Shown here: piece after piece, positions 5,612-45,480 of the stretch
How the letters are laid out: every line of letters starts with the position of its first letter
How positions within the stretch are numbered: position 1 is the first letter of the stretch
Assembly: GCA_009936775.1 (NCBI GenBank)
Contig: JAACDW010000247.1
Coordinates: 1 to 45,480 of the forward strand
Source of the DNA: Pseudomonadota bacterium
GTDB taxonomy: Bacteria > Pseudomonadota > Gammaproteobacteria > Pseudomonadales > Azotimanducaceae
Direction: 5' to 3'
DNA length: 45,480 bases
The notes under the pieces: generated by a model
What the model was told of the DNA's origin: nothing
What the model saw: only the letters and a program-made list of their open reading frames with translations
Database searches by the model: none
Position numbers and translations under genes: made by a program

Positions 5612-5638
5612 ACCTCGATCAGACCTCGATCAGACCTC
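5612..5638. repeat. 11-bp tandem duplication (ACCTCGATCAG x2.5) overlapping the SDR stop codon
   Basis: acctcgatcag acctcgatcag acctc read directly. Confidence 0.85.
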
Positions 5639-6511
5639 CATCGGCTTCAGCAGCTTGGGCCAGCGTTCCATGCTGGCTTCAATCGCCTCGCCTATGGCTT
5701 GTACGGTCCAAGGGCCTTCCATTGAATCTTTTTCTGCCAGAACATCAGACTGCCAAGACAGCAAAGTGGTGCGGTTGCCGCTCACGCAAAACTGACGCCC
5801 GGTAACTTTTGCCGCGGCGTCAGTGCACAGCCAAGCCACCGTTGGTGAAACCTTTTCAGGTGCCATACGCACAGCGGTTTCTTCGCTTTCGGGCATTAGG
5901 TCTTCGGTCATGCGCGACAGGGCAGCAGGGGCGAGAACGTTGACCGTAATACCGTATTTCATGCCCTCAAGGGCAAGCACACGCATAAAGCCAGCCATAC
6001 CTGCTTTGGCCGCGCCATAGTTGGCTTGGCCGAAGTTACCAATAAGGCCAGAGGTCGAACTGGTCATAATGATGCGGCCACCTTCGCCTTGAGCCAACAT
6101 TTGCTACCAAGCGTGCTTGGTGGCAAGGTAACTGCCACGTAGGTGGACATCGATCACAGCGTCCCACTCTGCATCGGTCATGTTTTTAAATGAACGGTCG
6201 CGCAAAATACCGGCATTGTTAATCAAGATGTCGAGTCGCCCGAAGTTATCCACCGCACACTGCACCATGGCAGCGGCTGCAGTATCGTCGGTAACCGAGC
6301 CATAGGTTGCAGCGGCTTGTCCGCCAGCGGCCTGAATCTCCGCCACAACGGTATCGGCCATGCTGGTACCACTACCGGTGCCGTCCCGCGCACCGCCTAA
6401 ATCGTTGACTACCACCGCTGCACCGTGCTCGGCCAACAGCAGTGCGTGAGCACGACCTAAACCGCCTCCAGCGCCGGTGACAATTGCTACTTTTCCGTCC
6501 AGTAATCCCAT
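5630..6511 (-). pseudogene. SDR oxidoreductase (MFE-2/3-hydroxyacyl-CoA dehydrogenase-like) interrupted by one in-frame TAG at 6104-6106
   Basis: TGAGGGLG, VVVNDLGG and NNAGILRD lie in the 5' half; SSTSG and NYGAAKAG (YxxxK) lie in the 3' half; halves are in frame: KHAW*QMLAQ; GGGAGA RBS before ATG 6511. Confidence 0.88.
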
Positions 6512-6641
6512 GTTGTTCTCCCTTCGATACGTTAGTGGATCAGTCAAAGGCTCGGTTATTCCCATGCAAGCTGGGCCTACAGCCAAATTCGTTATGCAAG
6601 TTCTTTTAACTGCTTGTTCGACACGGCGGTGGTAACCGCAA

Positions 6642-7853
6642 CTAGTACGAGCGGGGCATGTCTAAAACATGCTCCGCGACAAAACTGAGTATTAGATTCG
6701 TCGAGATCGGTGCGATTTGATAAAGCCTCGTCTCACGAAACTTTCGCTCAATATGGTACTCCTTGGCAAAGGCAAAACCGCCATGGGTTTGCATGCATAC
6801 ATCCCCAGCCTGCCACGAGGCCTCCGATGCCAACAGTTTAGCCATATTCGCCTCGGCACCACAGGGAACGCCACCATCAAACAAATTGGCTGCCTTTTCC
6901 ACCATTAAGGCCGCAGCTTCCACTTGCGTGAAGGCTCGAGCGATAGGGAACTGTACCCCCTGGTTGGCACCAATCGGGCGATTGAAGACCTCGCGCTGAG
7001 AGGCGTAGGCCGAGGCTTTGTCGATAAAGTAGCGGCCATCGCCAACGCATTCTGCGGCGATCAAAATCCGTTCGGCGTTCATGCCATCTAAAATCACCTT
7101 GAAACCCCCGCCTTCCTTGCCCAGCAAGTTATCCGCAGGTATCTCAAGATCATCGAAGAATAATTCGCAGGAGTGATGATTGATCATTGATTCAATAGGG
7201 CGGATGGTCAGACCATTACCCTTAGCCTTGGCCACATCGAGTAGGAACGCCGACAGACCTTCGGTTTTTTTGCTGACTTTGTCGCGGTCTGTGGTGCGCG
7301 CCAGCAGCACCATGAGATCCGAGTGCTCAATGCGACTGATCCAAACTTTCTGACCGTTGACGACGTATTTGTCGCCAACCCGTTTGGCGGTTGTTTGCAA
7401 ACTGGTGGTATCGGTACCTGTGGTGGGTTCGGTAACGCCAAAACTCTGCAGGCGCAGTTCACCCCGGGCAATCTTCGGCAGATAGGTATTTTTCTGCTCA
7501 TCGCTGCCGTGACGCAGCACGGACCCCATCACATACATCTGCGCATGGCAGACTCCAGCGTGAGCTCCGGAACGACAAATTTCTTCCATCACCGCAGCAG
7601 CCTCTAGGACCCCAAGACCGGCGCCACCGTACTGTTCGGGTATCAGCACTCCCAAGAAGCCGGAGTCAGTGAGCTCTCGCACAAACTCTGTCGGGTAGCC
7701 TGACTCTCGGTCCATCTGCAGCCAATAATCTTCGGCGAATTTAGCGCAAAGCTGGCGTACAGATAAGCGAATATGCTCTATGGCGGCCATTTTTTCGGTA
7801 TCCGATGTCGCCAAGTTTTGTTCGGCTTCGTCGCCAGACAGCGTCTTTGTCAT
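6642..7853 (-). CDS. Acyl-CoA dehydrogenase
   Basis: FGVTEPTTGTDT, NGQKVWISR, ERILIAAE and QTHGGFAF motifs; start set at ATG 7853 after AGGAGA. Confidence 0.9.
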   Translation of the reverse strand: MTKTLSGDEAEQNLATSDTEKMAAIEHIRLSVRQLCAKFAEDYWLQMDRESGYPTEFVRELTDSGFLGVLIPEQYGGAGLGVLEAAAVMEEICRSGAHAGVCHAQMYVMGSVLRHGSDEQKNTYLPKIARGELRLQSFGVTEPTTGTDTTSLQTTAKRVGDKYVVNGQKVWISRIEHSDLMVLLARTTDRDKVSKKTEGLSAFLLDVAKAKGNGLTIRPIESMINHHSCELFFDDLEIPADNLLGKEGGGFKVILDGMNAERILIAAECVGDGRYFIDKASAYASQREVFNRPIGANQGVQFPIARAFTQVEAAALMVEKAANLFDGGVPCGAEANMAKLLASEASWQAGDVCMQTHGGFAFAKEYHIERKFRETRLYQIAPISTNLILSFVAEHVLDMPRSY

Positions 7854-7992
7854 GCGCAAATTCTCTCCTTCTCCACCAAACATGGTGTGCTGCTGAGTCG
7901 CGGGAATCAAGACATCTGCGCAACAGATATGCATTGCAATTCGCATTTAACGTAGGCCAGTTGGCACCCATTAGCGTCACCAGCACGCTATA

Positions 7993-9294
7993 TCAGGTAT
8001 TTACTGCGATGCGACCCTCACGCTTCATCGCACGGTAAAGGGCATAAAACCCCCATCCGGCCAGACCACTGATAAGGGCTGCGGCACCGAATACCCAAGC
8101 ACCTATGCCTTGCCAAGTACCCGGGAGGAAGCCACCTGATTGCCAACCTGCGTAAAGCAAAATGCCAAGAAACGGCGCGATAGCACCGCGCACGCCGGTT
8201 AGCGTGACATGCAAGCCCATATAGGCCCCCAGTTGATCCTGACGCGCAAAGTCATTGTGCCCGAGTTGCCAAGCCAGCGAGCCGCCGCCTCTGGCAATGC
8301 CCATTATGGTCCGAGCGATCACCAGCCAGACCAATGATTCGAGCAGTGCGCCAAGCATGGTTAACAGTTGCCCGATGATCCACAGCACACTTTGTCTGGA
8401 GCGAAACTGGGCCACATGTACCCGATCCAAATAGTTGGCCCATATCGGCATGGAAAGAAGACTTACAGCGAAAGGAATCACCATGATCAGCACAATGGAT
8501 ACTGTGTAGGATGCCTGCATTTGCCGGGTGATGATGAAAATCAACGGTGCCTCTATGAGCATGTTGCCGAAGCCCGCACCAAACATGTTCAACTGATACC
8601 AGCGAAACCAAGGGTCACTGCGCAGAATTTGGGTAAAGCCCATGGACGGGGTGGGGTTGCGGCGTTCCCTACGCTCGCGTACCCGCTGCCTCGCCTCTCC
8701 AAGTACGCGCACCTGAGCAAAGAACAGCAGACCAAGGCAGCCAACGACGGCACCAGCCCAGTAAATCCAAGCGACGCTGTGTGGAAATAAATCCAGCAGC
8801 GGACCGATGGCAGAGGATATGGCGACGGTGACAACGGCGTTAATCATTTGCAGTTGGCTGGTTGCTCTGGCGCGCTGGTAGCGGGCGAAATTCAAACTCC
8901 AGATGACACTACGCACGGTAACCACGCCGGCCAATAAAATCCGCGAAACGATCATGCTGGAAACCAATACCCCAGCGCCCCACGCACCTGACGGCACAAT
9001 GGCCACAGCGACGACGCAGGCAATGATCAGCGCCTGTAAAATACACACGGCCGTTACCTTGGAGCGACCCGCAGACAACCTTCCCCAGAGGAAACTGGAG
9101 AGATTGGCAAACATGGGGGCGGCGCTGATCAGCGCTAGAGTAAAAGGCTCGACTTGATAGATTTTTGCCGCAATAACGCCAACTACGCCACCTTCCCACA
9201 GCACGAGGGCCGCAGGCATGGTGAGTTCTGCCGCGCGCTCAGCGCGAAAGCTGCGTCGAACCGACTGTGTTAACTGTAGATCAGTCCATGCCAC
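7993..9294 (-). CDS. MFS-type transporter
   Basis: About 12 hydrophobic segments in two halves separated by a charged central loop. Confidence 0.78.
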   Translation of the reverse strand: MAWTDLQLTQSVRRSFRAERAAELTMPAALVLWEGGVVGVIAAKIYQVEPFTLALISAAPMFANLSSFLWGRLSAGRSKVTAVCILQALIIACVVAVAIVPSGAWGAGVLVSSMIVSRILLAGVVTVRSVIWSLNFARYQRARATSQLQMINAVVTVAISSAIGPLLDLFPHSVAWIYWAGAVVGCLGLLFFAQVRVLGEARQRVRERRERRNPTPSMGFTQILRSDPWFRWYQLNMFGAGFGNMLIEAPLIFIITRQMQASYTVSIVLIMVIPFAVSLLSMPIWANYLDRVHVAQFRSRQSVLWIIGQLLTMLGALLESLVWLVIARTIMGIARGGGSLAWQLGHNDFARQDQLGAYMGLHVTLTGVRGAIAPFLGILLYAGWQSGGFLPGTWQGIGAWVFGAAALISGLAGWGFYALYRAMKREGRIAVNT

Positions 9295-9314
9295 AGGAAA
9301 TTATGGCAGCCGTA

Positions 9315-10373
9315 TCAGCGGTTCGGGCCTCGGTTCATGGGGTAGGGCTGCCAGCGCTCAAGCTGCACCTTGGGCAACACGGTTGGATTGACACAGCTCA
9401 TAGGCCAACGGTTACGCAGCACCAGCGCCACTTCGCGTCCCACCCGGCGTCGTGTCTCCGGGCGCATACGCGAAGTCGCCGACGCCACATGAGGACTGAC
9501 TAAGACATTTTCGCGGTGCAAGAGAGGGTTATCTTGGCTAGGCGGCTCTTGCTCCAACACGTCTAGCCCCGCTCCTGCAATGGCTCCGGCATCCAGCGCC
9601 GCAATAAGCGCCGCCTCATCGATAAGCGGTCCACGCGCCGTGTTTACGATTACCGCGGTTGCTTTCATTTTGGCGAAGGCATCGGTCGAGAACACGTGGT
9701 GGGTCTCTTCGTTGTGCGGCGCGTGCAGCGATAGGTAGTCAGAGCGCCGCAGCAACTCGTCCATGCTCACCGGTTCGATGCCATCTTCGGAAATCGTCAG
9801 TTCGCTGACGTAGGGGTCGAAGGCGATCACATGCATGCCAAAGGCCTTGGCGCGGCGTGCTGTGCAGCGCGCCACGTTGCCGTAGGCGAACAGACCCAGC
9901 GTCTGTCCCATAAGGCGAGGGGTGTGGTCAAGTAGCGGGCGTCCGGACCACCACTGGCCTTCCGCGGCCATGCGGTTCATGGTCTTCATCTGCCGGGCGC
10001 AACCTAGCAGTAGCATCAAGGCGTGATCGGCAACCTCCTCGATAAATACGTCTGGGACGTTGGTGACCACTATGCCGGCCTTGGTGGCAGCTTCAATATC
10101 CACCATGTCCACACCAACGCTGCCAACACCAATGACCACGCAGTTTTCCAGCTGTTCGATCAGTTGGGCGTCGATGCGGAATCCCCACGACGTGATGATG
10201 GCATCCATATCTTTTACACCGGCAGCAAATTCCTCTGGCGTTTGTGCCGCCACCTCGATGATTTCGGCCAGCGGCTCCAGCGCTTCCAACTCCAGCGAGT
10301 AACGAATGGCCACTTCCGCTGGGTTCGCCTGTCGAGGCAACTGAATACCAATTTTTTTCTTTTGCATGTCCAC
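9315..10373 (-). CDS. D-isomer-specific 2-hydroxyacid dehydrogenase (CtBP-like)
   Basis: GVDMVDIEAAT, NVPD..EEVADHA, VNTARGPLIDE, LDVLEQEP and SPHVAS motifs. Confidence 0.9.
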   Translation of the reverse strand: MDMQKKKIGIQLPRQANPAEVAIRYSLELEALEPLAEIIEVAAQTPEEFAAGVKDMDAIITSWGFRIDAQLIEQLENCVVIGVGSVGVDMVDIEAATKAGIVVTNVPDVFIEEVADHALMLLLGCARQMKTMNRMAAEGQWWSGRPLLDHTPRLMGQTLGLFAYGNVARCTARRAKAFGMHVIAFDPYVSELTISEDGIEPVSMDELLRRSDYLSLHAPHNEETHHVFSTDAFAKMKATAVIVNTARGPLIDEAALIAALDAGAIAGAGLDVLEQEPPSQDNPLLHRENVLVSPHVASATSRMRPETRRRVGREVALVLRNRWPMSCVNPTVLPKVQLERWQPYPMNRGPNR

Positions 10374-10503
10374 TCCGTCACCCCCTTATGCTGTATTGCC
10401 AGTGCTTTTTAGGCCGTGTGCCTGCGGCAGTGTATCAGGCTTGCCCCACAGGTTGGGTTATCCCATGCTTGGGCCTCGATTGATGCACATAGGAGGCGCA
10501 GGG

Positions 10504-11835
10504 GTGCCTGATCTTTTCGCGCTACTTTGGGTTGTATGCGGTATCTTGCTGGGTGCTTGCTTGGCGTTCTTGGGGCTAAAAAACCGCGCCCAACAAACCC
10601 TGCACAGCAAGGACAATGAACTGGCTGCCGCCCTTGCTAAGGAGACAATGCTAGCGCAACGCCAAGAAGAGTTGAGCCAACAAAACAACCAACTGCAAAC
10701 CGATCTTGCCGCTAAGCAAGGCGAGCTAGCAAGCCTGCAGGGGCGCATGGAAGAAACGCAGGCAAACTTCGTCGAAAGGGAAAAGCTGCTGCGCGAGTCC
10801 AACGAGCGCATGAAGGTAGAATTCGAAGCCTTGGCAAGTAAGGTGCTTAACGCTCAGGGTGCCCAACAGCGTCAGTCCTTGGATCTGATGCTGAACCCGT
10901 TTCGAGAGCAAATTGGCGACTTTCGCAAACGCGTAGAAGAGGTCTATCGCTCCGATACCAAGGAACGCGCTTCGTTGCTCAAGGAAATGCAAAACTTGCA
11001 ATCCGCCAGCAACCGCATTAACGCGGAGGCGGAAAACCTCACCAAGGCGCTGAAAGGCGACAACAAGGTACAGGGCAACTGGGGTGAGCTGGTACTCGAA
11101 CGTATTCTCGAAGATTCGGGTCTGCGAAAGGACCACGAGTACTTTGTGCAGCCGTCGAGCCGCGACGAACAGGGCAGACTGAAACGTCCAGATATTGTGA
11201 TTCGGCTGCCCGAGGGCAAGGATGTGGTCGTCGATTCAAAGGCAGCACTGGTGGCCTATGAACAGGCTCTGAGCACTGAGGATGAACAGGCACGGCAGGT
11301 CTTTCTTAAGCAGCACGTGGAGGCAGTGCGCGGACAGGTCAAAAAACTGGCGGAACAAGACTATGACCAGTTGCCAGATCTACGCTCACTGGATTTCGTG
11401 CTGTTGTTCATTCCCATTGAATCGGCCTTCACCTTGGCCATGGAGCTGGACTCAAAGCTTTTCATCGACGCTTTTAATAAACGCATCATGCTGGTAAGCC
11501 CAACCACCCTGATGATGGCTTTGCGCATCATCGACAACCTTTGGCAGGTCGAAAAACAAAACCGTAATGCACAAGACATCGCCCAACGCGCCGGCGCGCT
11601 GTATGACAAGTTGCAGGGTGTAGTCGAGGAGGTCGATAAGCTGGGCAAACAGCTTGGTACGGTGCAGGGCACCTACGACACCCTCTACGGACGGCTCGCC
11701 GGTGGCCGCGGCAACTTGGTTGGGCAGGCGGAAAAATTGCGCGAGCTTGGTGCGCCAGTAAAGAAAGTCATCGCCCCCCAACTCACCTCAGTTGATAGCC
11801 AATCTGACGTCCCAAATGACACCAAAGAACCCTAA
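10504..11835 (+). CDS. rmuC: DNA recombination protein RmuC
   Basis: N-terminal TM, long coiled coil, QGNWGELVLERILEDSGL, RPDIVIRLP..VVVDSK, DFVLLFIPIE, VSPTTL; GTG start after AGGAGG. Confidence 0.92.
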   Translation: MPDLFALLWVVCGILLGACLAFLGLKNRAQQTLHSKDNELAAALAKETMLAQRQEELSQQNNQLQTDLAAKQGELASLQGRMEETQANFVEREKLLRESNERMKVEFEALASKVLNAQGAQQRQSLDLMLNPFREQIGDFRKRVEEVYRSDTKERASLLKEMQNLQSASNRINAEAENLTKALKGDNKVQGNWGELVLERILEDSGLRKDHEYFVQPSSRDEQGRLKRPDIVIRLPEGKDVVVDSKAALVAYEQALSTEDEQARQVFLKQHVEAVRGQVKKLAEQDYDQLPDLRSLDFVLLFIPIESAFTLAMELDSKLFIDAFNKRIMLVSPTTLMMALRIIDNLWQVEKQNRNAQDIAQRAGALYDKLQGVVEEVDKLGKQLGTVQGTYDTLYGRLAGGRGNLVGQAEKLRELGAPVKKVIAPQLTSVDSQSDVPNDTKEP

Positions 11836-11843
11836 CCAGCGTG

Positions 11844-12317
11844 TCAGTCTTTGAGCATTTTTATAAAGGCTGGCGTGTCGCACAGGGTATAGGGGTGCAG
11901 TTGGTTGGCCTGCAGCGGCCAGCGCAGAGTTCGCGCACCTTCAAGCGCTTCTCTTTGCAGCTGTTCGTCGCTGGGCTTATGGCAAAGGCTATCGAGCTCC
12001 CGCCAAATCGGATTGAACGGCTGCAGGCGTTCAAAATAACAGCGACTTTCACCGCGAGAGTCAGGCAGCGCCAATACTTCAATGGCGCCGATCATTGCCC
12101 AGTGGGAAAACCACACCGCATCACCTTCACGCACCGCAAATAATAGCGGCATCTGCAGTTGCGAGGATTGCGCCGCGCGGAAAAACGCTGCGCCAACATG
12201 CCAAAGATGTTGGTCTTTGAATAGGCCGCCGCTATCCGCTTCCAGCATGGATTCAATACTCTTCTGCGATACGACAGTCGCCAAACAAAAATCCGCGACC
12301 TTGGGTTGTTCGCTCAT
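11844..12317 (-). CDS. Hypothetical protein, 157 aa
   Basis: Strong GGAGGT RBS; fills the gap between rmuC and the VRR-NUC gene; globular composition. Confidence 0.72.
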   Translation of the reverse strand: MSEQPKVADFCLATVVSQKSIESMLEADSGGLFKDQHLWHVGAAFFRAAQSSQLQMPLLFAVREGDAVWFSHWAMIGAIEVLALPDSRGESRCYFERLQPFNPIWRELDSLCHKPSDEQLQREALEGARTLRWPLQANQLHPYTLCDTPAFIKMLKD

Positions 12318-12427
12318 GCCGGCACCTCCCTAAATGGCCGCAAATAGCGCCACATCGCCCCAGACGACAAGGGACAACACTGCGCCAGTAAATGCCAGAA
12401 CTGTAAACCAACTGTTATGCTCTGAGC

Positions 12428-14077
12428 ATGGCATCTTCTGAACCTGATCCTAACGCGTTTGGCTCATACTCCCCAGCACCATTATTGCAGCCGCAACAGG
12501 CTGCCCCTGAAGACTATTATCAGAATATTTTCATCGAAGTATTCGGCTTCGTGCTTGGCCAATACGCTGCATTAATGCCCTGCGAGATGCGCCACTCACT
12601 GCAGTCTTTTCTGCACTCATGCAGTGACGCTCAGCGCCTTTTTGCGCGACTGCTGACGCGCAAGGGTCCAGTGTTCTTTGACACAAAGCTCGCATACCCC
12701 GAGGTTAGCAGCAGTGCGCATGCCCTCGAAGAACTGACCGCAGCGCAGCTGATCGGGCGCTGTCAACCAGTGCCCGGAGATCTTCTGCTTGAACGTTTGA
12801 CCAAGCAGGACATCACCGATGTCTGCTGCGCTGGCAGCAAATACGTCAAAGCACTGAGCAAGGACTCGCTCAAGAACGAAGTACTCAGTCGGCATACCGA
12901 CCAGCATTTACGTACTCTAATAGCAGAGAAAATGCCGTGGAGAACCATCAGCCAACCGCGACATTGGGAGCTGGTACAACTGCTGTACTTTGGGCGTGCA
13001 GGACAAGATTGGTCTGCCCATGTGCGCCGGGATCTGGGTCAGGTCACCTACGAAACCGTTGCCTTAAGTAAGTCGCGCCTCAGCAGTTCTGCAAGTTTCA
13101 ACAGCTTCCTGCACGAACGCGAACTGCGCCTGCGGGTATACCGCTTAGACGATTACCCAACCCTGCTGCCGGGGTTGCTGGCAGCCTTTGCACAGGCTCC
13201 CATCGGCGCACAGGCTGAAGCCCTGCGCCAGCGCAGTCTGCTGCGGGTGGGTAAATGGTGTGAGCAACGCCAGTATTGGGAGCAGGCCCTACGGGCTTAT
13301 GCGTTGGCACATATTCCTCCAGCTCGGGAGCGACGGGTAAGAATTCATCACAAACTCGGTCAGCGCCAGCAGGCCCAAGCGCTGCTGCTGCAGATGGGCG
13401 AACAACCGCTGAGTGCGACGGAGCAGATTTTCAGCCAACGCTTCGGTCGGCGCGGACAGGCTGCGCCACCAACCACTACGTGGCTGATCGAGGAAACCCC
13501 GAAGTATGTAGAGGGCTATGTTCTTGAGAGCCTGATCGAAGAGGGCGGATGGGGCATGCACTGTGAGAACACGCTTGTAAAAACTCTGACCGGACTGATT
13601 TATTGGCAGGCCATCTTCACACCGCTGCCCGGCGCCTTTACCAATCCATTTCAGGTCGCTCCCCACGATCTCATGCAGCACGAGTTCGCCCAGCAGCGCG
13701 AGACCTTGCTGAAGGAAATTGAGAAGAACACCGCAACAGATAAGGGCCTGATCAAGCAGATGCAGTCCATAGCCGCAGCCAAACAAGGCATCGCCAACCC
13801 ATTGGTGAGCTGGGGGTTGCTACAAAGTGTCGGTTTAGACGCTTGGTTAGAAGCGATACCACTAAAATGGATCAGACAGCTTAGCCATTTTTTAATTCGC
13901 AACCTCGGCGATTACCGCAGAGGCTTTCCTGACTTATTTATCGCCCATGCCGATGGCAGTGCCGAGTTCGTCGAGGTCAAGGGACCTACGGACCAGCTGC
14001 AGCCTCAGCAGCGAGCATGGTTTGAAACATTCGCTGCACTCGACATCGATGCACGAGTGATTAAGTTGAAGCTCTGA
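12428..14077 (+). CDS. VRR-NUC domain nuclease (bacterial FAN1-like)
   Basis: N-terminal YY..NF-like start and AQRLFARLLTRKG, TPR-like middle, HCENTL, C-terminal RRGFPDLF...FVEVKGPTDQLQPQQRAW PD-(D/E)XK motif. Confidence 0.9.
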   Translation: MASSEPDPNAFGSYSPAPLLQPQQAAPEDYYQNIFIEVFGFVLGQYAALMPCEMRHSLQSFLHSCSDAQRLFARLLTRKGPVFFDTKLAYPEVSSSAHALEELTAAQLIGRCQPVPGDLLLERLTKQDITDVCCAGSKYVKALSKDSLKNEVLSRHTDQHLRTLIAEKMPWRTISQPRHWELVQLLYFGRAGQDWSAHVRRDLGQVTYETVALSKSRLSSSASFNSFLHERELRLRVYRLDDYPTLLPGLLAAFAQAPIGAQAEALRQRSLLRVGKWCEQRQYWEQALRAYALAHIPPARERRVRIHHKLGQRQQAQALLLQMGEQPLSATEQIFSQRFGRRGQAAPPTTTWLIEETPKYVEGYVLESLIEEGGWGMHCENTLVKTLTGLIYWQAIFTPLPGAFTNPFQVAPHDLMQHEFAQQRETLLKEIEKNTATDKGLIKQMQSIAAAKQGIANPLVSWGLLQSVGLDAWLEAIPLKWIRQLSHFLIRNLGDYRRGFPDLFIAHADGSAEFVEVKGPTDQLQPQQRAWFETFAALDIDARVIKLKL

Positions 14078-36761: not shown

Positions 36762-37730
36762 TCACCGGCGGATCAACCCCAGATCGCGCATAACTCGACC
36801 CAACATGGCCTCCTGCTGCGCCAAATAGTCGCTAAAACGCGCCCCGGGCAACAACATGGGTTGCCAGCCGTACCGTTCCAATTGCTGCTGCCAAGCCGCT
36901 GTCTGGGACACAGCGATAAGCTGGTCTTGTAGCCGTTGGGCGTCGTCTGCCGACATGCCGCTGGGAGCAAATACGCCACGCCAGTTGTAAAACACCACGT
37001 CGACGCCTTGGCTAACAAAACTCTGAATCGCTGCCGATGTCGATACGCTGTTGGTTACGCCGAGAATACGGATGCTGCCAGCGCGCTGGGCTGCAAGCGT
37101 CTCGCCAAGACCGCTGACCATCAAATCAACTTCGCCGCTGAGCAGTGCTAACTGAGCCTTGGCGCCGCCGTCGTAAGCAAGATACCGAACCGAGCGTGGG
37201 TCTATGCCTTCGGCTTGGGCCAGCAAAGACAGGGTAATGTGGTCCAAACTGCCTTTCACTGAGCCGCCGCCAACAAAGGTGCGCGTATTCCGATCTTGTA
37301 GCAATGCGACCGCTTCCTGCCAGTTGCTGATGGGTGAATCTGCGCGCACTGCGATGACGCCGGGGTCTGCAATCAGCCCCGCAATGGGCGTCAAATCGCG
37401 AAAGGAGTGCGGAAACAAGCCCTGCAACGAACGCACGATTAATGGCGCTGAATTGACCAGTAGGGTGTTGTCGAGGGTGCTTGCATTGGCAACAAAGTAG
37501 GCCATCGCCTTGCCTCCGCCGCCACCGCTACGATTTTCGTAACTCACCGCATCGTCAAGACCTGAGTCAATTAACGCATTGCCAAGCGCTCTGGCCGTGG
37601 CATCGAGGCCGCCACCGGGACCCGCAGGAATAATTAGATGCAGACGTTCAGCAAAGCCAAGTGTTGCTGCGCCAGCAAGCCATACCGCAATCAACAAACC
37701 CAACAACGCGCGCCCCATCGAGGCGCTCAT
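36762..37730 (-). CDS. tctC: Tripartite tricarboxylate transporter substrate-binding protein TctC
   Basis: Signal peptide, IIPAGPGGGLDATAR, ENRSGGGG, YDGGA, NWRGVFAP; ATG 37730 overlaps the upstream stop (ATGA). Confidence 0.9.
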   Translation of the reverse strand: MSASMGRALLGLLIAVWLAGAATLGFAERLHLIIPAGPGGGLDATARALGNALIDSGLDDAVSYENRSGGGGGKAMAYFVANASTLDNTLLVNSAPLIVRSLQGLFPHSFRDLTPIAGLIADPGVIAVRADSPISNWQEAVALLQDRNTRTFVGGGSVKGSLDHITLSLLAQAEGIDPRSVRYLAYDGGAKAQLALLSGEVDLMVSGLGETLAAQRAGSIRILGVTNSVSTSAAIQSFVSQGVDVVFYNWRGVFAPSGMSADDAQRLQDQLIAVSQTAAWQQQLERYGWQPMLLPGARFSDYLAQQEAMLGRVMRDLGLIRR

Positions 37731-38635
37731 TTGTTCAAGAAATTCAGCGGCAAGCCAGCAACCGGCCAATCCATGCTGACCAGTTGGCCGGTAGACGACA
37801 ACGTGATATAGGCGGTTTTCAAATCCGCTCCACCGAAGCAGATATTTGTGGTTACCCGATCTGGCATGGCAACAAAGCTGGGTGGCTGGTCGGTTGCCGA
37901 TAGCGTCGTGATACCGCCATCCATCAGGGTCGCAACACAAACGTCGCCGTTAGCATCCACTGCCAACGAGTCGAACATGAAAAACCCGCTGCGCCCGTTG
38001 AGCAGACGGCGCGATGCCGCCGTGTCGATGCGACCCGGCCCCTGCAACGGGTAGGCCCAAACCCGGCCGGTCGGGGTTTCGGCAACAAACAGCTCGCTCT
38101 CGTCCGCAGACAAACCAATGCCGTTGGGTGCCTCAAGCGGGAATATGGCCTCTTCAATATGGCTGCCATCGGGCAGGGCATAAAACACTCCGGTGCGGTC
38201 TCGGTCACGGGGTCGGTTTTTGCCGTGGTCAGTAAACCAAAAACCACCCTGCGCATCGAAAACAATGTCGTTGGGGCCCTTCAGCGCCTCGCCATCGCAG
38301 TGGCTGTAAAGCGTAACAAATTCGCCGTTCTGCAAATTCACCCGCTGAATGCTGCCGCCGGCGTAGTCGGCGGGCTGCTCGCCCGGATATACCTTGTCGC
38401 CGCGCTCAATCCACTCAAAGCCACCGTTGTTGCACACATAGCAAAAACCGTCCGGGCCCATGGCTGCGCCGTTGGGGCCGCCGCCAAGTTTGGCAATACA
38501 GTGTGCCTCGCCGTCCTTGATGCGGGTCAGCTGGCCTGCCTTGATTTCCACCAGCACAATGGAGCCATCGCTAAGTGCGATCGGTCCTTCAGGGAATTGG
38601 AGTGCAGTCGCGATCAGAGTCAGTTGTGGTTGCAT
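37727..38635 (-). CDS. SMP-30/gluconolactonase/LRE family protein
   Basis: LQFPEGP, GGGPNG, GPNDIVFD..GGFWFTD, PNGIGLS, DSLAVDANG, TTNICFGG; AAGGAG RBS before ATG 38635. Confidence 0.9.
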   Translation of the reverse strand: MQPQLTLIATALQFPEGPIALSDGSIVLVEIKAGQLTRIKDGEAHCIAKLGGGPNGAAMGPDGFCYVCNNGGFEWIERGDKVYPGEQPADYAGGSIQRVNLQNGEFVTLYSHCDGEALKGPNDIVFDAQGGFWFTDHGKNRPRDRDRTGVFYALPDGSHIEEAIFPLEAPNGIGLSADESELFVAETPTGRVWAYPLQGPGRIDTAASRRLLNGRSGFFMFDSLAVDANGDVCVATLMDGGITTLSATDQPPSFVAMPDRVTTNICFGGADLKTAYITLSSTGQLVSMDWPVAGLPLNFLNK

Positions 38636-38696
38636 TGCTCTCTCCTTGTGGCCCAAGATTCCACTCCAACGCACAACAGATAGCAAGGATATTACG

Positions 38697-39005
38697 GTGA
38701 TACGGACCCTCGTATGCATGCTCGCCGCACTGACACTTAATTTTGGCTGCCAGTCTTACGTAGACGGATCCAAACGCACCGCCGGCGAATTCGCCGATGA
38801 CGCACAGATAACGGCCATGGTGAAAATCAATCTGTGGGATGACCCAGAGGTCAAAGGCTGGCGCATCAACGTCACCACGAAGAAAGGCGTGGTCATTCTC
38901 GAAGGCCGGGTGCCGTCAGGGTATGCGCGCGACAAAGCCGTCCGCATCGCTGGCGCCACCGGCAGCGTTATCGGTGTAGAGGACCGCCTGACCGTGGTTG
39001 AGTGA
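38697..39005 (+). CDS. BON-domain lipoprotein (OsmY-like)
   Basis: Lipobox-like NFGC, RTAGEFADDAQITAMVK, INVTTKKGVVILEG; GTG start after AAGGA. Confidence 0.85.
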   Translation: MIRTLVCMLAALTLNFGCQSYVDGSKRTAGEFADDAQITAMVKINLWDDPEVKGWRINVTTKKGVVILEGRVPSGYARDKAVRIAGATGSVIGVEDRLTVVE

Positions 39006-39044
39006 GTGACATTCTGAATTACAAAAATTCTATAAGCTATTAGT

Positions 39045-39920
39045 TTATAACCACTTTCTAGGCTTCAAATATGCCCCTAAAGCGGCCTCTCGACTGCCTG
39101 CTTCAGGCTGATATTCGTATATCCACTTTACCAAGGGCGGCAGCGAGGCGAGTACCGATTCAATACGCCTGCCACTTTGCAGTCCATACTTGGTGCCTCG
39201 GTCGATGGCCAAGTTGAACTCTGCATAGCGGCCGCGTCGATACAGCTGAAAATCGCGCTCCCTAGGGGTAAAGGGCGTATGCATGCGGCGAGAAAAAATA
39301 GGCTGGTAGGCCGCGAGGAAAGAATCGCCAACGCGCTTGACTAGGTTAAAACTTTCGTCATATCCACCGGTGGTCCAGTCATCAAAAAAAATCCCCCCCA
39401 CACCTCGAGTCTCATCACGATGACTCAAATAAAAGTAATCGTCGCAGCTTGCTTTGAAAGTATGGTAGTGCTCGCCCACGGCGTCTGCGGCGGTTTGATG
39501 CCAAAGCACGACGTCTTCTTCGACTGGATAACAGGGCGTCAGGTCGTAGCCACCGCCAAAATACCAAACTGGCTGCTCGGCCTCGACATAAAAGAAACGC
39601 AAATTCATATGCGTAATGGGCACATGCGGGTTGCAGGGGTGCACGATAAGCGAGATTGCCGTGGCCTGAAACGCGCTACCCGCCAAATGTGGATTGCGCT
39701 CAGTGGCTGCCGGCGGCAGTGCTGCGCCCTTGGAGTGGGTGAACTGCACGGCTGCTTTTTCAATATGCCTGCCGTCTGCCAGTACCCGCGGCTGGGACAA
39801 ACCTCCCGTGGGCGGCTTAATTTGCTGCAGCGAAAAACTGGCTTGTCCGTCGAGGGCCTCCAATGCAGTGCAAATAGTGCGCTGCAACTGCAAAAAATAG
39901 CCAACCACTGGCTCAATCAT
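39045..39920 (-). CDS. hemF: Oxygen-dependent coproporphyrinogen III oxidase
   Basis: HP.NPHVP.THMNLRFF, FGGGYDLTP, RGVGGIFFD, QLYRRGRYAEFNL..DRGT.YGLQSG. Confidence 0.95.
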   Translation of the reverse strand: MIEPVVGYFLQLQRTICTALEALDGQASFSLQQIKPPTGGLSQPRVLADGRHIEKAAVQFTHSKGAALPPAATERNPHLAGSAFQATAISLIVHPCNPHVPITHMNLRFFYVEAEQPVWYFGGGYDLTPCYPVEEDVVLWHQTAADAVGEHYHTFKASCDDYFYLSHRDETRGVGGIFFDDWTTGGYDESFNLVKRVGDSFLAAYQPIFSRRMHTPFTPRERDFQLYRRGRYAEFNLAIDRGTKYGLQSGRRIESVLASLPPLVKWIYEYQPEAGSREAALGAYLKPRKWL

Positions 39921-40084
39921 GACTCATCCTAGGGCGTTGAATAACCGCATCATTGTATCGAGAAAGCCCCATTCAAGCGCTACACAAAGCCTGTTTAGCG
40001 ACCGTACATGTCTAACTTTGAGGCCGAATTATCTACCGAAAACAGGCTGCGGCAATTCCTAGCTAAACGCTAATTGGGCATACT

Positions 40085-41671
40085 ATGCGGATGCAATATA
40101 CAGATTTTTTACCCTACTTGGACGCGCTGGACAGTCTGGTGCGTAAAGCCTGCGCCCACCTTCACGGCGATCTCGATGAGGAACAAATAGAGCTATACGA
40201 TCTAGCCTTCGTGCAAGCCGAGTTGCTCGCTGCCCGCACCTTGATAGCGGAGACCCAGCAAAACCGCAGCCTCACTTCAGTTTGCAACTATTTCTGCGCC
40301 AACGCTGTGGTGTCGATTACCCAAAAATTAGCTGTGCGTCCGCAAACCTTCGGTCTAACCGCTGCTGAGTTGCCTGAACTGGAGCCGCTGCAAGACCACC
40401 TTGCGCCAAGTGCCATAGCGGCGCTAGGGCATCAATATTTGCAGCACGGGCTTGCGGACGACCGGCTGGACGACGAAAAGCGCATTATCCGCAACACTTT
40501 CAAAGACTTTGCTGACGATGTGGTAAAGCCTCTGGCCGAAGAGGTTCATCGCAAGGACCTGCTGGTGCCCGCAGAAATTTTAGAGCCGCTCAAGCAAATG
40601 GGTGTGTTTGGCCTCAGCGTACCCGAACGCTTCGGCGGTCTGAAGCCGGACAGCACCGAAGACAGCATGGGAATGGTCATTGTGACGGAAGAGCTGTCGC
40701 GAGGGTCGCTAGGCGCAGCGGGCAGTCTAATTACTCGCCCAGAAATTATGGCAAGAGCGCTGCTTGAAGGCGGCACAGACGAACAGCAGGCACGCTGGTT
40801 GCCGCAAATCGCCTCTGGTGAAACGCTTTGTGCGGTGTCGGTAACCGAACCCAACACGGGTTCTGACGTTGCATCGGTCGCTTTAAAGGCCACGCGTACC
40901 GATGGCGGCTGGCACCTTAATGGCGGCAAAACTTGGTGCACCTATGCTGGTGCGGCTGGCGCATTACTGGTTTTGGCGCGGACGAATCCAAATGCCAAAC
41001 CCGCGCACAAAGGCCTATCGTTATTTGTCGTTGAAAAGCCAACCTATGATGGCCACGATTTCGAGTTTGAGCAAAACACCGGGGGGCGTATGTCCGGCAG
41101 GGCCATTCCGACCCTAGGCTATCGAGGCATGCATTCCTTCGAAATGTCCTACCAGGACTTTTTTGTACCGGACGATTGCCTAATCGGCGGTACGAGTGGA
41201 GAGGGTAAGGGTTTTTATTTTACCATGCGAGGCTTTATGGGCGGCCGACTGCAAACCGCGGCCAGAGCCTGTGGCCTGATGCGCGCTGCCTTTGAAGAAA
41301 GCGTGTCTTATAGCCAAGACCGGATGGTCTTTGGGCGCTCGGTCGCCAGCTATCCACTGTCGCTGGCAAAGCTTGCGCGCATGGGCGCTCTGATTACAGC
41401 TTGTAAGGCCTTTACCGCGCATGTGGCGGGTCTAATGGACCAAGGTCTCGGGCAAATGGAAGCCAGCTTGGTAAAGCTGTTTTCCTGTCGAGCAGCCGAG
41501 TGGGTAACACGCGAAGGCGTGCAGTTGCATGGTGGCATGGGCTACGCTGAAGAAGTTGCAGTCAGCCGCTATTTCGCAGATGCTCGCGTGCTTTCCATAT
41601 TTGAAGGTGCCGAAGAAACGCTGGCGATACGCGTAGTCGGCAAGTCCCTTATTGACCAAGCAAGGAATTGA
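40085..41671 (+). CDS. Acyl-CoA dehydrogenase with N-terminal extension (methylsuccinyl-CoA dehydrogenase-like architecture)
   Basis: EELSRGSLGAAGSLITRPEI, VTEPNTGSD, LGYRGM, RLQTAARA, QLHGGMGYA, IFEGAEE. Confidence 0.85.
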   Translation: MRMQYTDFLPYLDALDSLVRKACAHLHGDLDEEQIELYDLAFVQAELLAARTLIAETQQNRSLTSVCNYFCANAVVSITQKLAVRPQTFGLTAAELPELEPLQDHLAPSAIAALGHQYLQHGLADDRLDDEKRIIRNTFKDFADDVVKPLAEEVHRKDLLVPAEILEPLKQMGVFGLSVPERFGGLKPDSTEDSMGMVIVTEELSRGSLGAAGSLITRPEIMARALLEGGTDEQQARWLPQIASGETLCAVSVTEPNTGSDVASVALKATRTDGGWHLNGGKTWCTYAGAAGALLVLARTNPNAKPAHKGLSLFVVEKPTYDGHDFEFEQNTGGRMSGRAIPTLGYRGMHSFEMSYQDFFVPDDCLIGGTSGEGKGFYFTMRGFMGGRLQTAARACGLMRAAFEESVSYSQDRMVFGRSVASYPLSLAKLARMGALITACKAFTAHVAGLMDQGLGQMEASLVKLFSCRAAEWVTREGVQLHGGMGYAEEVAVSRYFADARVLSIFEGAEETLAIRVVGKSLIDQARN

Positions 41672-41758
41672 TCAGGCTAGCAACCAATCAACCGTGAGCG
41701 CCGCGGCGCTACTTGATACGACAATTAACGATTTTTTTATACCGGACCAGGAGTCATC

Positions 41759-42973
41759 ATGGATTTGAGTTTTTCAGAGCAGGATCGAGCCTTTCAGGCG
41801 GAAGTGCGCGGCTGGCTAGAACAGGCATGGCCTCAGGAAATGCGCGACAAGCAAGGCCGTAGCGCATTGGGCAAGCTTTCTAAAGAAGATCTCGTTGGCT
41901 GGCAAAAGCGCCTAGCAGAAAAGGGTTGGGCGGCAACAAACTGGCCCAAGGAGCATGGTGGCGCTGCTTTCACGCCCACCGAAAGCTATATTTTTGATGC
42001 CGAACGTGCACGCGTAGGCGCCCCGGGTGTCGTACCTTTCGGCATCACCATGGTAGCGCCGGTGATCATGAAGTTCGGTACCGATGAGCAAAAAGCAAAG
42101 TTCCTGCCCTCGATTTTGAACTCAGATGTCTGGTTCTGCCAAGGATACTCCGAGCCGGGCTCTGGCTCTGACCTTGCGTCTTTGAAAACCAAGGCCGAAG
42201 ACAAGGGCGATCACTATTTGGTGAATGGTGTTAAAACTTGGACCACCATGGCCCAGTACGCTGATTGGATGTTCTGTTTGGTGCGCACCAGCAACGAAGA
42301 CATCCGCCAGATGGGCATCAGCTTCATTCTGATGGACATGAACACCCCTGGCATATCGGTCAAGCCGATTGTCACCCTAGATACCCCAGCCGAAGGCTAC
42401 CAAGAAATCAACATGGTTTATTGCGAGGACGTCAAGGTACCGAAGGAGAACCTCGTCGGTGAGCAAGGCAAGGGGTGGACCTGTGCCAAGTATTTGTTGG
42501 AATGTGAACGCGGTAACGCCTACTCACCGGGCCTTAAAGGTGCCATGGCGCATCTGAAGCAGGCCGCAGCAGCCGAGCAGGACGGTCTAGGTCAAGCCTT
42601 TGCCGACAGCCCCGACTTCATGAAAAAGTTCAACGACGTTGAAGTGCAAATTCTTGCCATGGAAGCAACAGAGCTGCGTATTCTCGGAGCACTGGCTGCG
42701 GGTCAAAACCTTGGGCCGGAAAGCTCGATTCTGAAAACTCGCGGTACAGAACTGCAGCAAGCCGTTACTGAGCTGGCGCTGGAAATTACTGGCACCTATG
42801 CTGCGCCTCTGGATCAGTCCACTCCGGCGCCCGGCGATAACTTCCAGCCAGTCGGCCCGCAAGCGTCGAACGGCGTGACTCAAGAGTATTTCAATACGCG
42901 CAAGGTCAGCATCTATGCAGGGTCGAACGAGATCCAGCGCAACATCATGTCGAAGCTAGTCCTAGGTCTGTAG
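41759..42973 (+). CDS. Acyl-CoA dehydrogenase (PimC-like)
   Basis: MDLSFS, WPKEHGG, CQGYSEPGSGSDLASL, SIYAGSNEIQRNI. Confidence 0.9.
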   Translation: MDLSFSEQDRAFQAEVRGWLEQAWPQEMRDKQGRSALGKLSKEDLVGWQKRLAEKGWAATNWPKEHGGAAFTPTESYIFDAERARVGAPGVVPFGITMVAPVIMKFGTDEQKAKFLPSILNSDVWFCQGYSEPGSGSDLASLKTKAEDKGDHYLVNGVKTWTTMAQYADWMFCLVRTSNEDIRQMGISFILMDMNTPGISVKPIVTLDTPAEGYQEINMVYCEDVKVPKENLVGEQGKGWTCAKYLLECERGNAYSPGLKGAMAHLKQAAAAEQDGLGQAFADSPDFMKKFNDVEVQILAMEATELRILGALAAGQNLGPESSILKTRGTELQQAVTELALEITGTYAAPLDQSTPAPGDNFQPVGPQASNGVTQEYFNTRKVSIYAGSNEIQRNIMSKLVLGL

Positions 42974-42998
42974 GCAAGTTGAGTGCCCGGGGAGGGTA

Positions 42999-43028
42999 GG
43001 TAAAAGGCGGCTTAGGCCGCCTTTTACC
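42999..43028. terminator. Bidirectional Rho-independent terminator between convergent genes
   Basis: GGTAAAAGGCGGC-TTAG-GCCGCCTTTTACC, a perfect 13-bp stem. Confidence 0.88.
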
Positions 43029-43089
43029 ATTTTTCGTTTGTTCCAACGAAACGGTCGGTGCCAAAAGCCTCATTGCCTTGCGCAGCCTT

Positions 43090-43677
43090 CTAACTGTTGA
43101 AGTTCTCTCCTTCAAAATCTTCAAACAAGCGCTTTGCCAAATCGTCTGATATGCGCGTCCACTTTCCCAACCATCGGCCCAAGCGGCTAATGCCCACAGA
43201 GGGGTTGGGGCTTTCCTTAATGAGGTTCTGGTACATGGTCCGGCGCATGCCATCACCGCGATTGTGCAAAATGGAAGCAATATTGGTGACCAGCTTTATG
43301 GCAATGCGGGGGTGCTCAACCACAATCTTGTTATACACGTCGATACTCAAGTAAAGGTAATCGCATTCCGTGCGTGACACTACGCTGGCGGTACGCGTGG
43401 CTTGGAGGACCAGATTGGTTTCACCGTTCAGGCAGGGACCGGAAAAGTTTCCCGTGTTCATGGCAACCGTGGTGAGGTTTACCCGGCACTTATAAAAGAC
43501 GGAAAAGTCGCCATTGAGTAGCAATAACAGGTCACTGCCGGTATCACCCTGAAACAGCAGAATCGTTCCTGCAGCCGCATGACGCTGTTCCATATAGCCG
43601 ACCAGAGTTTCGACTTCGTCGGTTTCAAGGTCGGGAATGACCTTTGCCACGGTTTCAAGTATTTCAGCTTGTTCCAA
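43090..43677 (-). CDS. Cyclic-nucleotide-binding domain protein (no obvious CRP HTH)
   Basis: GTILLFQGD.G..L.LLLNG, GE.NL....RTASV, HPRIAIKL; TTG start after GAGGGG. Confidence 0.8.
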   Translation of the reverse strand: MEQAEILETVAKVIPDLETDEVETLVGYMEQRHAAAGTILLFQGDTGSDLLLLLNGDFSVFYKCRVNLTTVAMNTGNFSGPCLNGETNLVLQATRTASVVSRTECDYLYLSIDVYNKIVVEHPRIAIKLVTNIASILHNRGDGMRRTMYQNLIKESPNPSVGISRLGRWLGKWTRISDDLAKRLFEDFEGENFNS

Positions 43678-43739
43678 TTCCCCTCTCCCTATTCTAATCA
43701 GTACCGGGGAATTCTGCCTAAATAGCCCCTAGGCGAACG

Positions 43740-44570
43740 CTACAGCTTATGAGTTTGGCCTTCTGTGGCGATGATGGTATGACCTTCCAGAGCCTCCACT
43801 TGTTCCTTGATGAGGTCCAAGTCTTCATCGACTACACCGGGATTAAAGCCCGCAAGCGCGAGGGTCTTTACGTTAGAGAAGCGTGCGGTCTTATAGCCCA
43901 CCTGCCAAGTAGAGTGCCCCCAACCCTTGAAGCTTGGATATTCTTCATCGCTGTAGGCTGCGTCAAATACCAGCATATCGGCGTTTTCTGCCAGCGCGGC
44001 AACACCGGGGTGGACACCTTCCTCTTCGACATGTTCATGATCTAGGCAATAGGCCAATGCCTTGTTGCCGTATTGAATACGAAACCCAGAACTGTCGTTG
44101 GGGTGATTCATGGCTTGAGCCGTCACCATGACGTCACCAAAAGCACGAGTTGCTCCAGAGGCCATTTCCGTAACCGACTTCACCCCCTGCAGAGCGGCGA
44201 AAGGGACCGGGAAGTTTGGCGGCAGCATTTGTCGATCCAGACAGGTTGCCAAAGGCGCGCCTTCGCGCTTGGGTCCTACGATGTGGATCTCGTTGCGCGG
44301 ATCGTAGGCAAGCTGGAAGAAGGGTAGGCCTTGAATATGATCCCAATGGGTATGGGTCAGAAACAGGTTGATCTTTACCGGGTCAGAGGTGGTCGCCCGA
44401 ACATGGCGGCCGAAACTTTGAATGCCGGTCCCGGCATCGAGCAGCAAAATTGAATCACCGGCGCGAACCTCCACGCAGGGGGTGTTACCGCCATACCGTG
44501 CGGTCTGAGGTCCGGGTACCGGTGTGGAACCTCTGATACCCCAAAAGGTGACGGCCATGCGTGGATCCAT
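43740..44570 (-). CDS. MBL-fold phosphodiesterase-like protein (RNase Z/PhnP-like)
   Basis: FWGIRGSTPVPG..RYGGNTPC, DAGTG, THTHWDHIQG, NHP, DHE, GWGHS. Confidence 0.85.
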   Translation of the reverse strand: MDPRMAVTFWGIRGSTPVPGPQTARYGGNTPCVEVRAGDSILLLDAGTGIQSFGRHVRATTSDPVKINLFLTHTHWDHIQGLPFFQLAYDPRNEIHIVGPKREGAPLATCLDRQMLPPNFPVPFAALQGVKSVTEMASGATRAFGDVMVTAQAMNHPNDSSGFRIQYGNKALAYCLDHEHVEEEGVHPGVAALAENADMLVFDAAYSDEEYPSFKGWGHSTWQVGYKTARFSNVKTLALAGFNPGVVDEDLDLIKEQVEALEGHTIIATEGQTHKL

Positions 44571-44867
44571 ACTCGCCCTTTTAGTGTTTTAAGAAATTAC
44601 GCAGCGTGCTTCCCAACAGGTCGACCAGACCCGCGGGGCGGCAATTATAACCCTCTCGAATCGTTGATTTATAGAGAGATTTTTCACACTTTGGCAATTT
44701 AGACGAGGCGGCCCCTGGAAGTTAAACCTCTTTATAAGCGCCGATACTGTGTTGCACGAGGCGCTATCTTAAATTCATTTTCACCAAAGTGTTGCATGAG
44801 GCATGAAGCTCTTGTCTACTGAATGTTACTGGGATCAGCCAAAAACAATAAAAGGGTTGAAGGGTCC

Positions 44868-45480
44868 GTGAGCAAACGACTGAACGATCTTTTGATCGGC
44901 AAAATTCGGCACAATCTGAAGACCCATTTGAACATCGTTTGCGGTTTCTCTGAACTGTTGCTCGAAGAACTGGAAGACGATGAGGTCAGTGCGAGCGACG
45001 CCGCCGCCGCAGCCCTGCAAAGCATCAATCAAAGCGGCGACAGCATTGTGCAATATATCGACCAGATTTTTGCCGCCCACAACTTTTCCCTTGAAGATGT
45101 TTTCGCCCAACTGAATATCCAAGCTTAGGCGTTCAAAAGCACTACTGACGAATTCATCGCGCGCATAAACCAGCAACTGGATTGGTGGCGGCAGCAGGGG
45201 CCACAGGACTTTTATGCACAATTCACTGAAGACTTCAGTAAGATTGATGCTGCCACTGCGGGGCTACGCGATAATGTGGAGAGCCTACAAAGTGGCTCAA
45301 TTAGCTCTGTGGAAACACTGGTTGACCATCAGGTACTCAGTCAGGACGACATCAATCTCATTGGTAAGTTTTCTGACTCTCTGGAAGCCACGCCGGATGT
45401 TCTGGAGACCAAATATCCTTCCGCCATTCTTGTAGTCGATGACAACCCGGCGAACACCGAATATCTGAGCCGCAAACTCA
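44868..45480 (+). CDS. Signalling protein with HisKA-like helix and receiver domain (3' truncated); in-frame TAG at 45126-45128
   Basis: RHNLKTHLNIVCGFSELLLEE resembles an H-box; reading through NIQA*AFKS stays open to the edge and reaches AILVVDDNPANTEYLSRKL (REC start). Confidence 0.75.

What the first reader, a model, noticed from the sequence alone, without database searches (positions are those of the whole stretch)
5630..45480. Five otherwise intact genes each carry one in-frame stop, with no frameshifts
Seen: SDR (TAG 6104), PdsS-like kinase (TAG 24449), pnuC (TGA 27260), ltaE (TGA 33605) and the HisKA-REC gene (TAG 45126) all continue in frame with conserved motifs after the stop. pnuC read-through even restores an ATGA overlap with the next gene. 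TAG and TGA also end normal genes here (pstS and ACAD 42973 end in TAG; several TGA overlaps), so global reassignment is unlikely. Inference: (a) substitution-type sequencing or amplification error, the most parsimonious since each stop is one base from a sense codon; (b) very recent gene decay or a mutator lineage; (c) context-dependent read-through, suppression or editing.
Basis: partly seen in the sequence, partly recalled or inferred. Interest (0 to 1): 0.72.

Follow-up and report, generated by a model that had tools for sequence, protein, structure and literature searches.

The report
Four sequence errors, one real pseudogene
Four of the five premature stop codons in this stretch of a marine bacterial genome are ordinary amino-acid codons in other assemblies of the same species and are likely sequence errors, the fifth is a real broken allele shared with another data set, and nothing points to a new genetic code.

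Summary
All five in-frame stops are in the window. Contigs of public seawater runs read sense codons at four: CAG at 6104 and 24449, TGG at 27260, TTA at 33605. These four belong to 38 substitutions in 39,981 laid bases that are private to this assembly and look poorly selected (14 synonymous, 16 missense, 4 nonsense, 4 intergenic). Genome-wide there are 18 stops in 321,799 codons aligned to a sister genome (2 in the reverse control), using all three stop codons at many residues. rpsC, atpD, dapE and ftsK carry stops and atpA a frameshift, which a living cell is unlikely to survive; a 99.7% identical intact DapE exists elsewhere. So these are likely errors of this assembly, about 6 per 10,000 bases. 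The fifth stop (45126, a REC-adenylate-cyclase gene) is shared with run X1 and a 109.7-kb contig but is Gln in two other same-species sequences: an ordinary nonsense allele. Recoding fails every test made. Unexplained: an A-to-C excess in AA context, mutT-like rather than Illumina-like. The scan reached assembly-error verdicts before on other genomes.

The parts
5630..6511 (-). SDR oxidoreductase gene (293 codons); TAG at 6104-6106 is CAG (Gln) in runs X1, X2, X6 and in G014: private to this assembly
23189..25414 (-). PdsS-like sensor kinase gene (741 codons); TAG at 24449-24451 is CAG (Gln) in X1, X2, X6; intact 741-aa proteins P0014 and P0016 carry Gln; continuous in G014: private to this assembly
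26696..27298 (+). pnuC-type transporter gene (200 codons); TGA at 27260-27262 is TGG (Trp) in X1, X2 and G014 (X6, X7 do not cover it): private to this assembly
33281..34297 (-). ltaE low-specificity threonine aldolase gene (338 codons); TGA at 33605-33607 is TTA (Leu) in X1 and X2, Leu in G014 (X6, X7 do not cover it): private to this assembly
44823..45480 (+). 5' part (219 of 544 codons) of a receiver-domain class III adenylate/guanylate cyclase gene; TAG at 45126-45128 is shared with X1 and with a 109,735-bp contig, Gln in P0035, P0036 and G014: real nonsense allele; rest of the gene not in the assembly
5500..45480 (.). 38 single-base differences private to this assembly (14 synonymous, 16 missense, 4 nonsense, 4 intergenic), the background to which the four stops belong

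Best explanation
Four of the five stops are single-base differences found only in this assembly and are likely errors made between the cell and the consensus sequence, and the fifth is a real nonsense allele in one population of the species. Shown: other runs read Gln, Gln, Trp and Leu at the four sites; the assembly carries about one private substitution per kilobase; stops of all three kinds also hit rpsC, atpD, dapE and ftsK. Inferred: about 6-7 unselected substitutions per 10,000 bases were fixed in the consensus (roughly 1,700-2,000 in the genome, some 45 of them stops), mixed with a smaller number of true strain differences; about 3 in 100 random substitutions make a stop, and this contig, the longest of 293, drew four. 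The step that made them is not shown: the A-to-C excess in AA context would fit polymerase misincorporation during amplification from few templates better than Illumina miscalls. The cyclase stop is CAG to TAG and has likely inactivated a dispensable signalling gene that has paralogues.
For: Sense codons at four sites in runs of 2 or 3 studies (X1, X2, plus X6 at two sites). X1 covers all 39,981 laid bases and differs at 49 sites; at 38 X2 sides with X1 and no other covering run sides with the window (one partial exception: a second X2 contig at 33344). At the 19 private non-synonymous sites aligned to G014, G014 matches the runs at 13, the window at 0, neither at 6. Private coding sites are 14 of 34 synonymous against 24 of 29 for listed X2 strain differences (P=0.0009). 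18 stops in 321,799 aligned codons of 1,217 genes vs 2 in 322,313 in the reverse test; TAG 9, TAA 5, TGA 4 fits uniform random substitution (chi-square P=0.82); aligned residues E4 L3 Q3 W2 Y2 R2 C1 S1. Single-copy rpsC has a TAG (none in 3 of 3 relatives with a match), atpD a TAA (none in 4 of 4), dapE a TAA, atpA a 1-base frameshift at the Walker A motif. P0214 is identical to the dapE product at 392 of 393 positions with Glu at the stop. Rate implied by stops 5.6-6.8e-4 per base agrees with 7.3e-4 from the window's non-synonymous sites. Fifth stop: X1's contig over 42613-45480 has 5 differences, all listed and none at 45126; the exact 101-aa truncated protein is on record from a 109,735-bp contig.
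Against: No raw reads of the source library were available; all laid data are contigs, which drop rare variants. The private sites are more synonymous than pure noise (14 of 34 vs 24% expected, P=0.02), so some are real strain differences. Nonsense is over-represented among them (4 of 20 non-synonymous vs 4.4%, P=0.01), explained only by the window having been picked for it. The spectrum does not match the usual Illumina motif: 0 of 13 T-to-G changes follow GG, and 9 of 13 lie in 5'-AA (P=0.002), which is the context reported for mutT mutators. Outside the window only dapE was checked against same-species sequence; rpsC, atpD, atpA and ftsK were checked against other species only. One of the six stops checked proved real, so some of the other genome-wide stops may be real too.
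Confidence: 0.87

Rival explanations
1. The genome is a faithful copy of a real mutator lineage (oxidised-dGTP type plus C-to-T) that fixed many mutations recently under weak selection, so the stops are young pseudogenes.
For: A:T-to-C:G is the commonest private class (13 of 38) with a 5'-AA context in 9 of 13; mutT mutants show this class and 44% 5'-AA context (10.1101/2022.10.21.513255, passages). No mutT above the family cut-off in G000. One stop (45126) is real, and the private set holds more synonymous changes than noise.
Against: Stops or a frameshift in rpsC, atpD, atpA, dapE, ftsK, trpF, nadB and cca would have to coexist in one viable cell; essentiality is from general knowledge of proteobacteria, not tested here. 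The spectrum is mixed, not mutT-pure (25 of 38 are other classes). None of 5 relatives has mutT above the cut-off either, so its absence says nothing. The mutS part that is assembled has no stop.
Confidence: 0.08
2. The consensus is a patchwork of real but rare alleles from a mixed population, chosen by the assembler at bubbles in low coverage; each stop existed in some cell but never together.
For: At 11 of 49 sites where X1 differs from the window another run shares the window's letter, so the species is polymorphic; 14 of 34 private coding sites are synonymous.
Against: Lethal alleles such as a stop in rpsC should be too rare to be drawn at this rate (inference); listed strain differences include 0 nonsense in 29 coding sites (only P=0.12 against 4 of 34).
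Confidence: 0.04
3. The stops are read as amino acids in the cell by reassignment, suppressor tRNAs, context-dependent read-through or RNA editing.
For: Frames stay open and conserved after each stop; no frameshift in the laid part of the window; a tRNA-Sec(TCA) is present; only 27 tRNA genes were found, so the set is incomplete.
Against: The same species has plain sense codons at four sites. One codon would need several meanings: TGA faces W, L and C; TAG faces Q, W, Y, E, S, R; TAA faces E, Q, R. All three stops end normal genes (TAG 990, TAA 860, TGA 716 among ORFs). Both release factor genes are present without stops. No CTA or TTA anticodon; tRNA-Trp has CCA and a normal 5-bp anticodon stem. 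No Rfam match in the window.
Confidence: 0.01

Closest known systems
Local consensus errors in metagenome-assembled genomes (Chen et al. 2020, PMC7111523; passages seen)
   Same: Draft genome of 293 short contigs with unsupported bases that break protein-coding genes; other assemblies of the species read the genes intact.
   Different: Here the errors are dispersed single substitutions at about 6-7 per 10,000 bases, not local mis-joins; lack of read support, the paper's criterion, could not be tested.
Illumina substitution error profile (Schirmer et al. 2016, PMC4787001; passages seen)
   Same: Substitutions outnumber indels; T is the most often replaced base and G the preferred replacement.
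   Different: The GG motif that precedes the commonest Illumina errors is missing (0 of 13), and indels are not a thousand times rarer here (18 stops and 5 frameshift-like cases in the same comparison, plus atpA).
mutT / 8-oxo-dGTP mutator spectrum in E. coli (10.1101/2022.10.21.513255; passages seen)
   Same: Excess of A:T-to-C:G with a 5'-AA preference.
   Different: Only 13 of 38 private changes are of this class, and lesions hit genes that a living mutator could not lose.
Bacterial stop-codon reassignment, UGA to Trp (Mycoplasmatales and others) or Gly (Gracilibacteria, Absconditabacteria) (Shulgina and Eddy 2021, PMC8629427; passages seen)
   Same: In-frame stops inside conserved genes.
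   Different: Rare (5.6 per 100,000 codons), all three codons, no single residue, release factors kept, no cognate tRNA, and not shared by the same species.
Ordinary strain-level nonsense allele (young pseudogene)
   Same: The 45126 stop: one C-to-T step in a signalling gene with paralogues, present in some assemblies of the species and absent in others.
   Different: No difference seen; loss of function is inferred, not measured.

Membership tests
Assembly-private sequence error | Variant absent from independent data of the same species | tested here: met
   4 of 5 window stops and the dapE stop; not met for 45126
Assembly-private sequence error | Changes ignore selection (non-synonymous excess, random stop codons and residues) | tested here: met
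   14 of 34 synonymous vs 24 of 29; stop types fit random, P=0.82; a residual synonymous excess shows some real variants are mixed in
Assembly-private sequence error | Essential single-copy genes are hit | tested here: met
   rpsC, atpD, dapE stops and atpA frameshift; ftsK 4TM region; essentiality from general knowledge
Assembly-private sequence error | Consensus base lacks support in the source library's raw reads | not testable with these tools
   All 24 runs listed are kept as contigs; the source library is not known
Illumina base-calling error | T most often replaced, G preferred as replacement | tested here: met
   T-to-G / A-to-C is 13 of 38
Illumina base-calling error | Errors follow GG motifs | tested here: not met
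   0 of 13 contexts read; 7% of T follow GG in the window, so the test is weak
mutT-type mutator lineage | A:T-to-C:G dominates, 5'-AA context | tested here: inconclusive
   Commonest class but 13 of 38; context 9 of 13, P=0.002
mutT-type mutator lineage | mutT lost in this lineage but kept in relatives | tested here: inconclusive
   No match over cut-off in G000 or in 5 of 5 relatives
mutT-type mutator lineage | Essential genes spared | tested here: not met
Stop-codon reassignment | One stop codon used in frame with one consistent residue | tested here: not met
   TAG 9, TAA 5, TGA 4, facing 8 different residues
Stop-codon reassignment | Cognate tRNA present | tested here: not met
   27 tRNA genes, none with CTA or TTA; TCA only as tRNA-Sec; the set is incomplete
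Stop-codon reassignment | Matching release factor lost or broken | tested here: not met
   Two PCRF-domain genes, no stops inside
Stop-codon reassignment | In-frame codon shared across the species | tested here: not met
Selenocysteine / pyrrolysine recoding | Site aligns to Cys/Sec or Pyl in dedicated enzymes | tested here: not met
   Sites are Gln, Gln, Trp, Leu, Gln in the same species
Young pseudogene allele (45126 only) | Lesion shared by more than one assembly and absent from others | tested here: met
   Window, X1 and a 109,735-bp contig carry it; P0035, P0036, G014 do not. X1 may be the source sample, so independence is not shown
Young pseudogene allele (45126 only) | Further decay downstream of the stop | tested here: inconclusive
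   The 117 codons after the stop equal P0035; the rest of the gene is not assembled

The most novel reading that the evidence does not exclude
The assembly faithfully records a wild marine gammaproteobacterial hypermutator, with an oxidised-dGTP-like signature and some 1,700-2,000 unpurged substitutions, that survives stops in rpsC, atpD and dapE because extra chromosome copies or leaky termination mask them.
Probability: 0.03. Interest if true: 0.65.

Novelty: not a real feature. Interest (0 to 1): 0.08.

Why it matters
Mainly as a warning: a species-representative genome scored 93.9% complete and 0.22% contaminated likely carries about 6-7 wrong bases per 10,000 and some 45 false stops, so pseudogene, auxotrophy, dN/dS and recoding calls made on it are unsafe, and its truncated proteins are already in public protein sets (P0003, P0008). 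The real cyclase allele is a minor strain polymorphism. If the mutator reading were true it would be a rare natural case of extreme unpurged mutation load.

Tried and rejected
A sixth stop at 31511-31513 was rejected: it lies in a shadow frame upstream of the true start of the CPT-family gene, and the base change is Phe to Tyr in the gene on the other strand. An apparent split of the kinase in G014 was an effect of my stretch boundary; the gene is continuous. The first genome-wide count (202 vs 82) was dropped because shadow ORFs inflated it; one search kept 1,532 of 1,819 G014 ORFs and 2,402 of 2,711 G000 ORFs and required 20 aligned residues with 11 identities on each side, which misses three of the five window stops. 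Only 1.92 of about 3.0 Mb of G014 was compared. The 2 control stops lie near ORF starts and are probably start over-extension. A reference-free split-gene scan was too unspecific to count with (96 vs 45 candidates; 11 of 21 known stops recovered) and served only to find rpsC and atpD. A pattern scan of JGI metagenome contigs round 45126 found 0. Exact look-ups failed for 3 of 7 and 7 of 7 truncated products. A trend to more stops on long contigs was not significant without this window (P=0.11). No shared motif round the private sites other than the AA context (read by eye). Only 31 of the roughly 146 X2 differences not in the private set were displayed and classified. Five paper searches were for context; I make no claim that anything is absent from print. 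No supplements were read.
Full report
Observation. The window is contig C136, the longest of 293 contigs of G000 (2.875 Mb, 93.9% complete, 0.22% contamination). Source names of cluster members call close relatives Gammaproteobacteria and the runs that hold the DNA are marine or seawater metagenomes. All five stops are present and the frames continue. Read with X, the genes are an SDR, a PdsS-like kinase (TIGR03785 below cut-off), PnuC, LtaE, and the first 219 codons of a 544-aa receiver-domain class III cyclase.

Same-species DNA. I laid contigs of X1, X2, X6, X7 on 25500-45480 and of X1, X2, X6, X8 on 5500-25499. X1 and X2 read TGG at 27260 and TTA at 33605; X1, X2 and X6 read CAG at 6104 and 24449. 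X1 covers all 39,981 laid bases with no indel and 49 substitutions, all listed. At 38 of them X2 agrees with X1 and no other covering run sides with the window (one partial exception at 33344); at 11 another run shares the window's letter. X1 may be the source sample (the tool warns of this, and its contig ends at exactly 45480 like the window), but X2 and X6 come from other studies.

The fifth stop differs. X1's contig over 42613-45480 has five differences, none at 45126. The exact 101-aa truncated product is on record from Logan/ENA with a 109,735-bp contig, and an intact 741-aa kinase with Gln is on record with a contig of the same length; that these are one contig is my inference. Two full-length same-species proteins have Gln there: P0035, on a 13,784-bp contig that matches the length of X2's record, and P0036; G014 has CAG. 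So TAG is a real allele in at least one population. The rest of the gene is not in G000, which has three paralogous cyclase matches.

Nature of the private sites. After correcting three frame assignments, they are 14 synonymous, 16 missense, 4 nonsense and 4 intergenic. Listed X2 strain differences are 24 synonymous of 29 coding, none nonsense (P=0.0009). Random substitution predicts 24% synonymous and about 3% nonsense, so the private set looks like mostly unselected change with some real variants mixed in (P=0.02 against pure noise). Where G014 aligns, it sides with the runs at 13 of 19 non-synonymous sites and never with the window. Examples are Phe to Cys twice in a 96%-conserved acyl-CoA dehydrogenase and Glu to Ala four times.

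Genome-wide. Against 1.92 Mb of sister genome G014, G000 has 18 well-flanked stops in 321,799 aligned codons of 1,217 genes; the reverse test gives 2 in 322,313 (P=0.0002). They are TAG 9, TAA 5, TGA 4, as random substitution predicts (P=0.82), and face eight different residues. The genes include dapE, the ftsK membrane region, nadB, trpF, a prephenate dehydrogenase, cca, acnD and dusA. Family searches add a TAG in the single rpsC and a TAA in the single atpD, absent from relatives, and atpA is frameshifted at its Walker A motif. A DapE identical at 392 of 393 positions with Glu at the stop exists on three public contigs. The stop rate implies 5.6-6.8e-4 unselected substitutions per base and about 46 stops per genome, close to 7.3e-4 from the window. 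The window therefore has an ordinary load for this assembly but drew more stops than average (P=0.004 alone; 0.2 over 63 windows).

Recoding. All three stops end ordinary ORFs, both release factors are intact, there is no CTA or TTA tRNA among 27, tRNA-Trp is canonical with a 5-bp anticodon stem (a 4-bp stem variant is the subject of PMC13092985, of which I saw the listing and the start of the abstract), and Rfam finds nothing in the window. Known bacterial stop reassignments are UGA to Trp or Gly (PMC8629427, passages).

What is left open. The spectrum is T>G 13, C>T 9, T>C 6, C>G 4, T>A 3, C>A 3. T replaced by G fits Illumina profiles (PMC4787001, passages), but none of 13 follows GG and 9 of 13 are in 5'-AA (P=0.002), the context reported for mutT mutants (10.1101/2022.10.21.513255, passages). 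mutT is not found above cut-off in G000 or five relatives, so that test is uninformative. Because a cell with broken rpsC, atpA, atpD, dapE and ftsK is unlikely to live (general knowledge), I read the signature as misincorporation or miscalling outside the cell, fixed in a consensus built from few molecules; that step is inferred. Consensus errors that break genes in draft metagenome genomes are known (PMC7111523, passages).

Verdict. The cluster is not a biological feature: four likely errors (confidence 0.87) and one ordinary nonsense allele. Interest 0.08.

Noticed in passing
window 45480 (contig end): The window and run X1's contig stop at the same base, inside the cyclase gene that carries the real stop, while X2's contig runs on; the remaining 325 codons are not in G000. 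A fork or second lesion in this population is possible.
   Followed up: partly
window 5500-45480: A-to-C / T-to-G is the commonest private change and 9 of 13 cases lie in 5'-AA, giving repeated Glu-to-Ala and Phe-to-Cys changes; source unexplained.
   Followed up: partly
G000:C50 about 17170 (atpA) and 14084 (atpD, L168:1771): One ATP synthase operon carries both a frameshift in atpA and a TAA in atpD.
   Followed up: yes
G000:C180:11608 (L167:1759): TAG at codon 123 of ribosomal protein S3.
   Followed up: yes
G000:C123:2524: A paralogous cyclase gene has TGA at a conserved Gly; not checked against same-species data.
   Followed up: no
window 23189-26128: PdsS/PdsR-like two-component pair; both score below the TIGR03785 and TIGR03787 cut-offs, and no sortase partner was looked for.
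   Followed up: no
window 33281-34297: The threonine aldolase also passes the NCBIfam GntG-family aldolase cut-off (422 vs 230 bits); likely family overlap.
   Followed up: no
G000:C54 (contig start): A tRNA-Sec cut by the contig end; selenoprotein use not examined.
   Followed up: no
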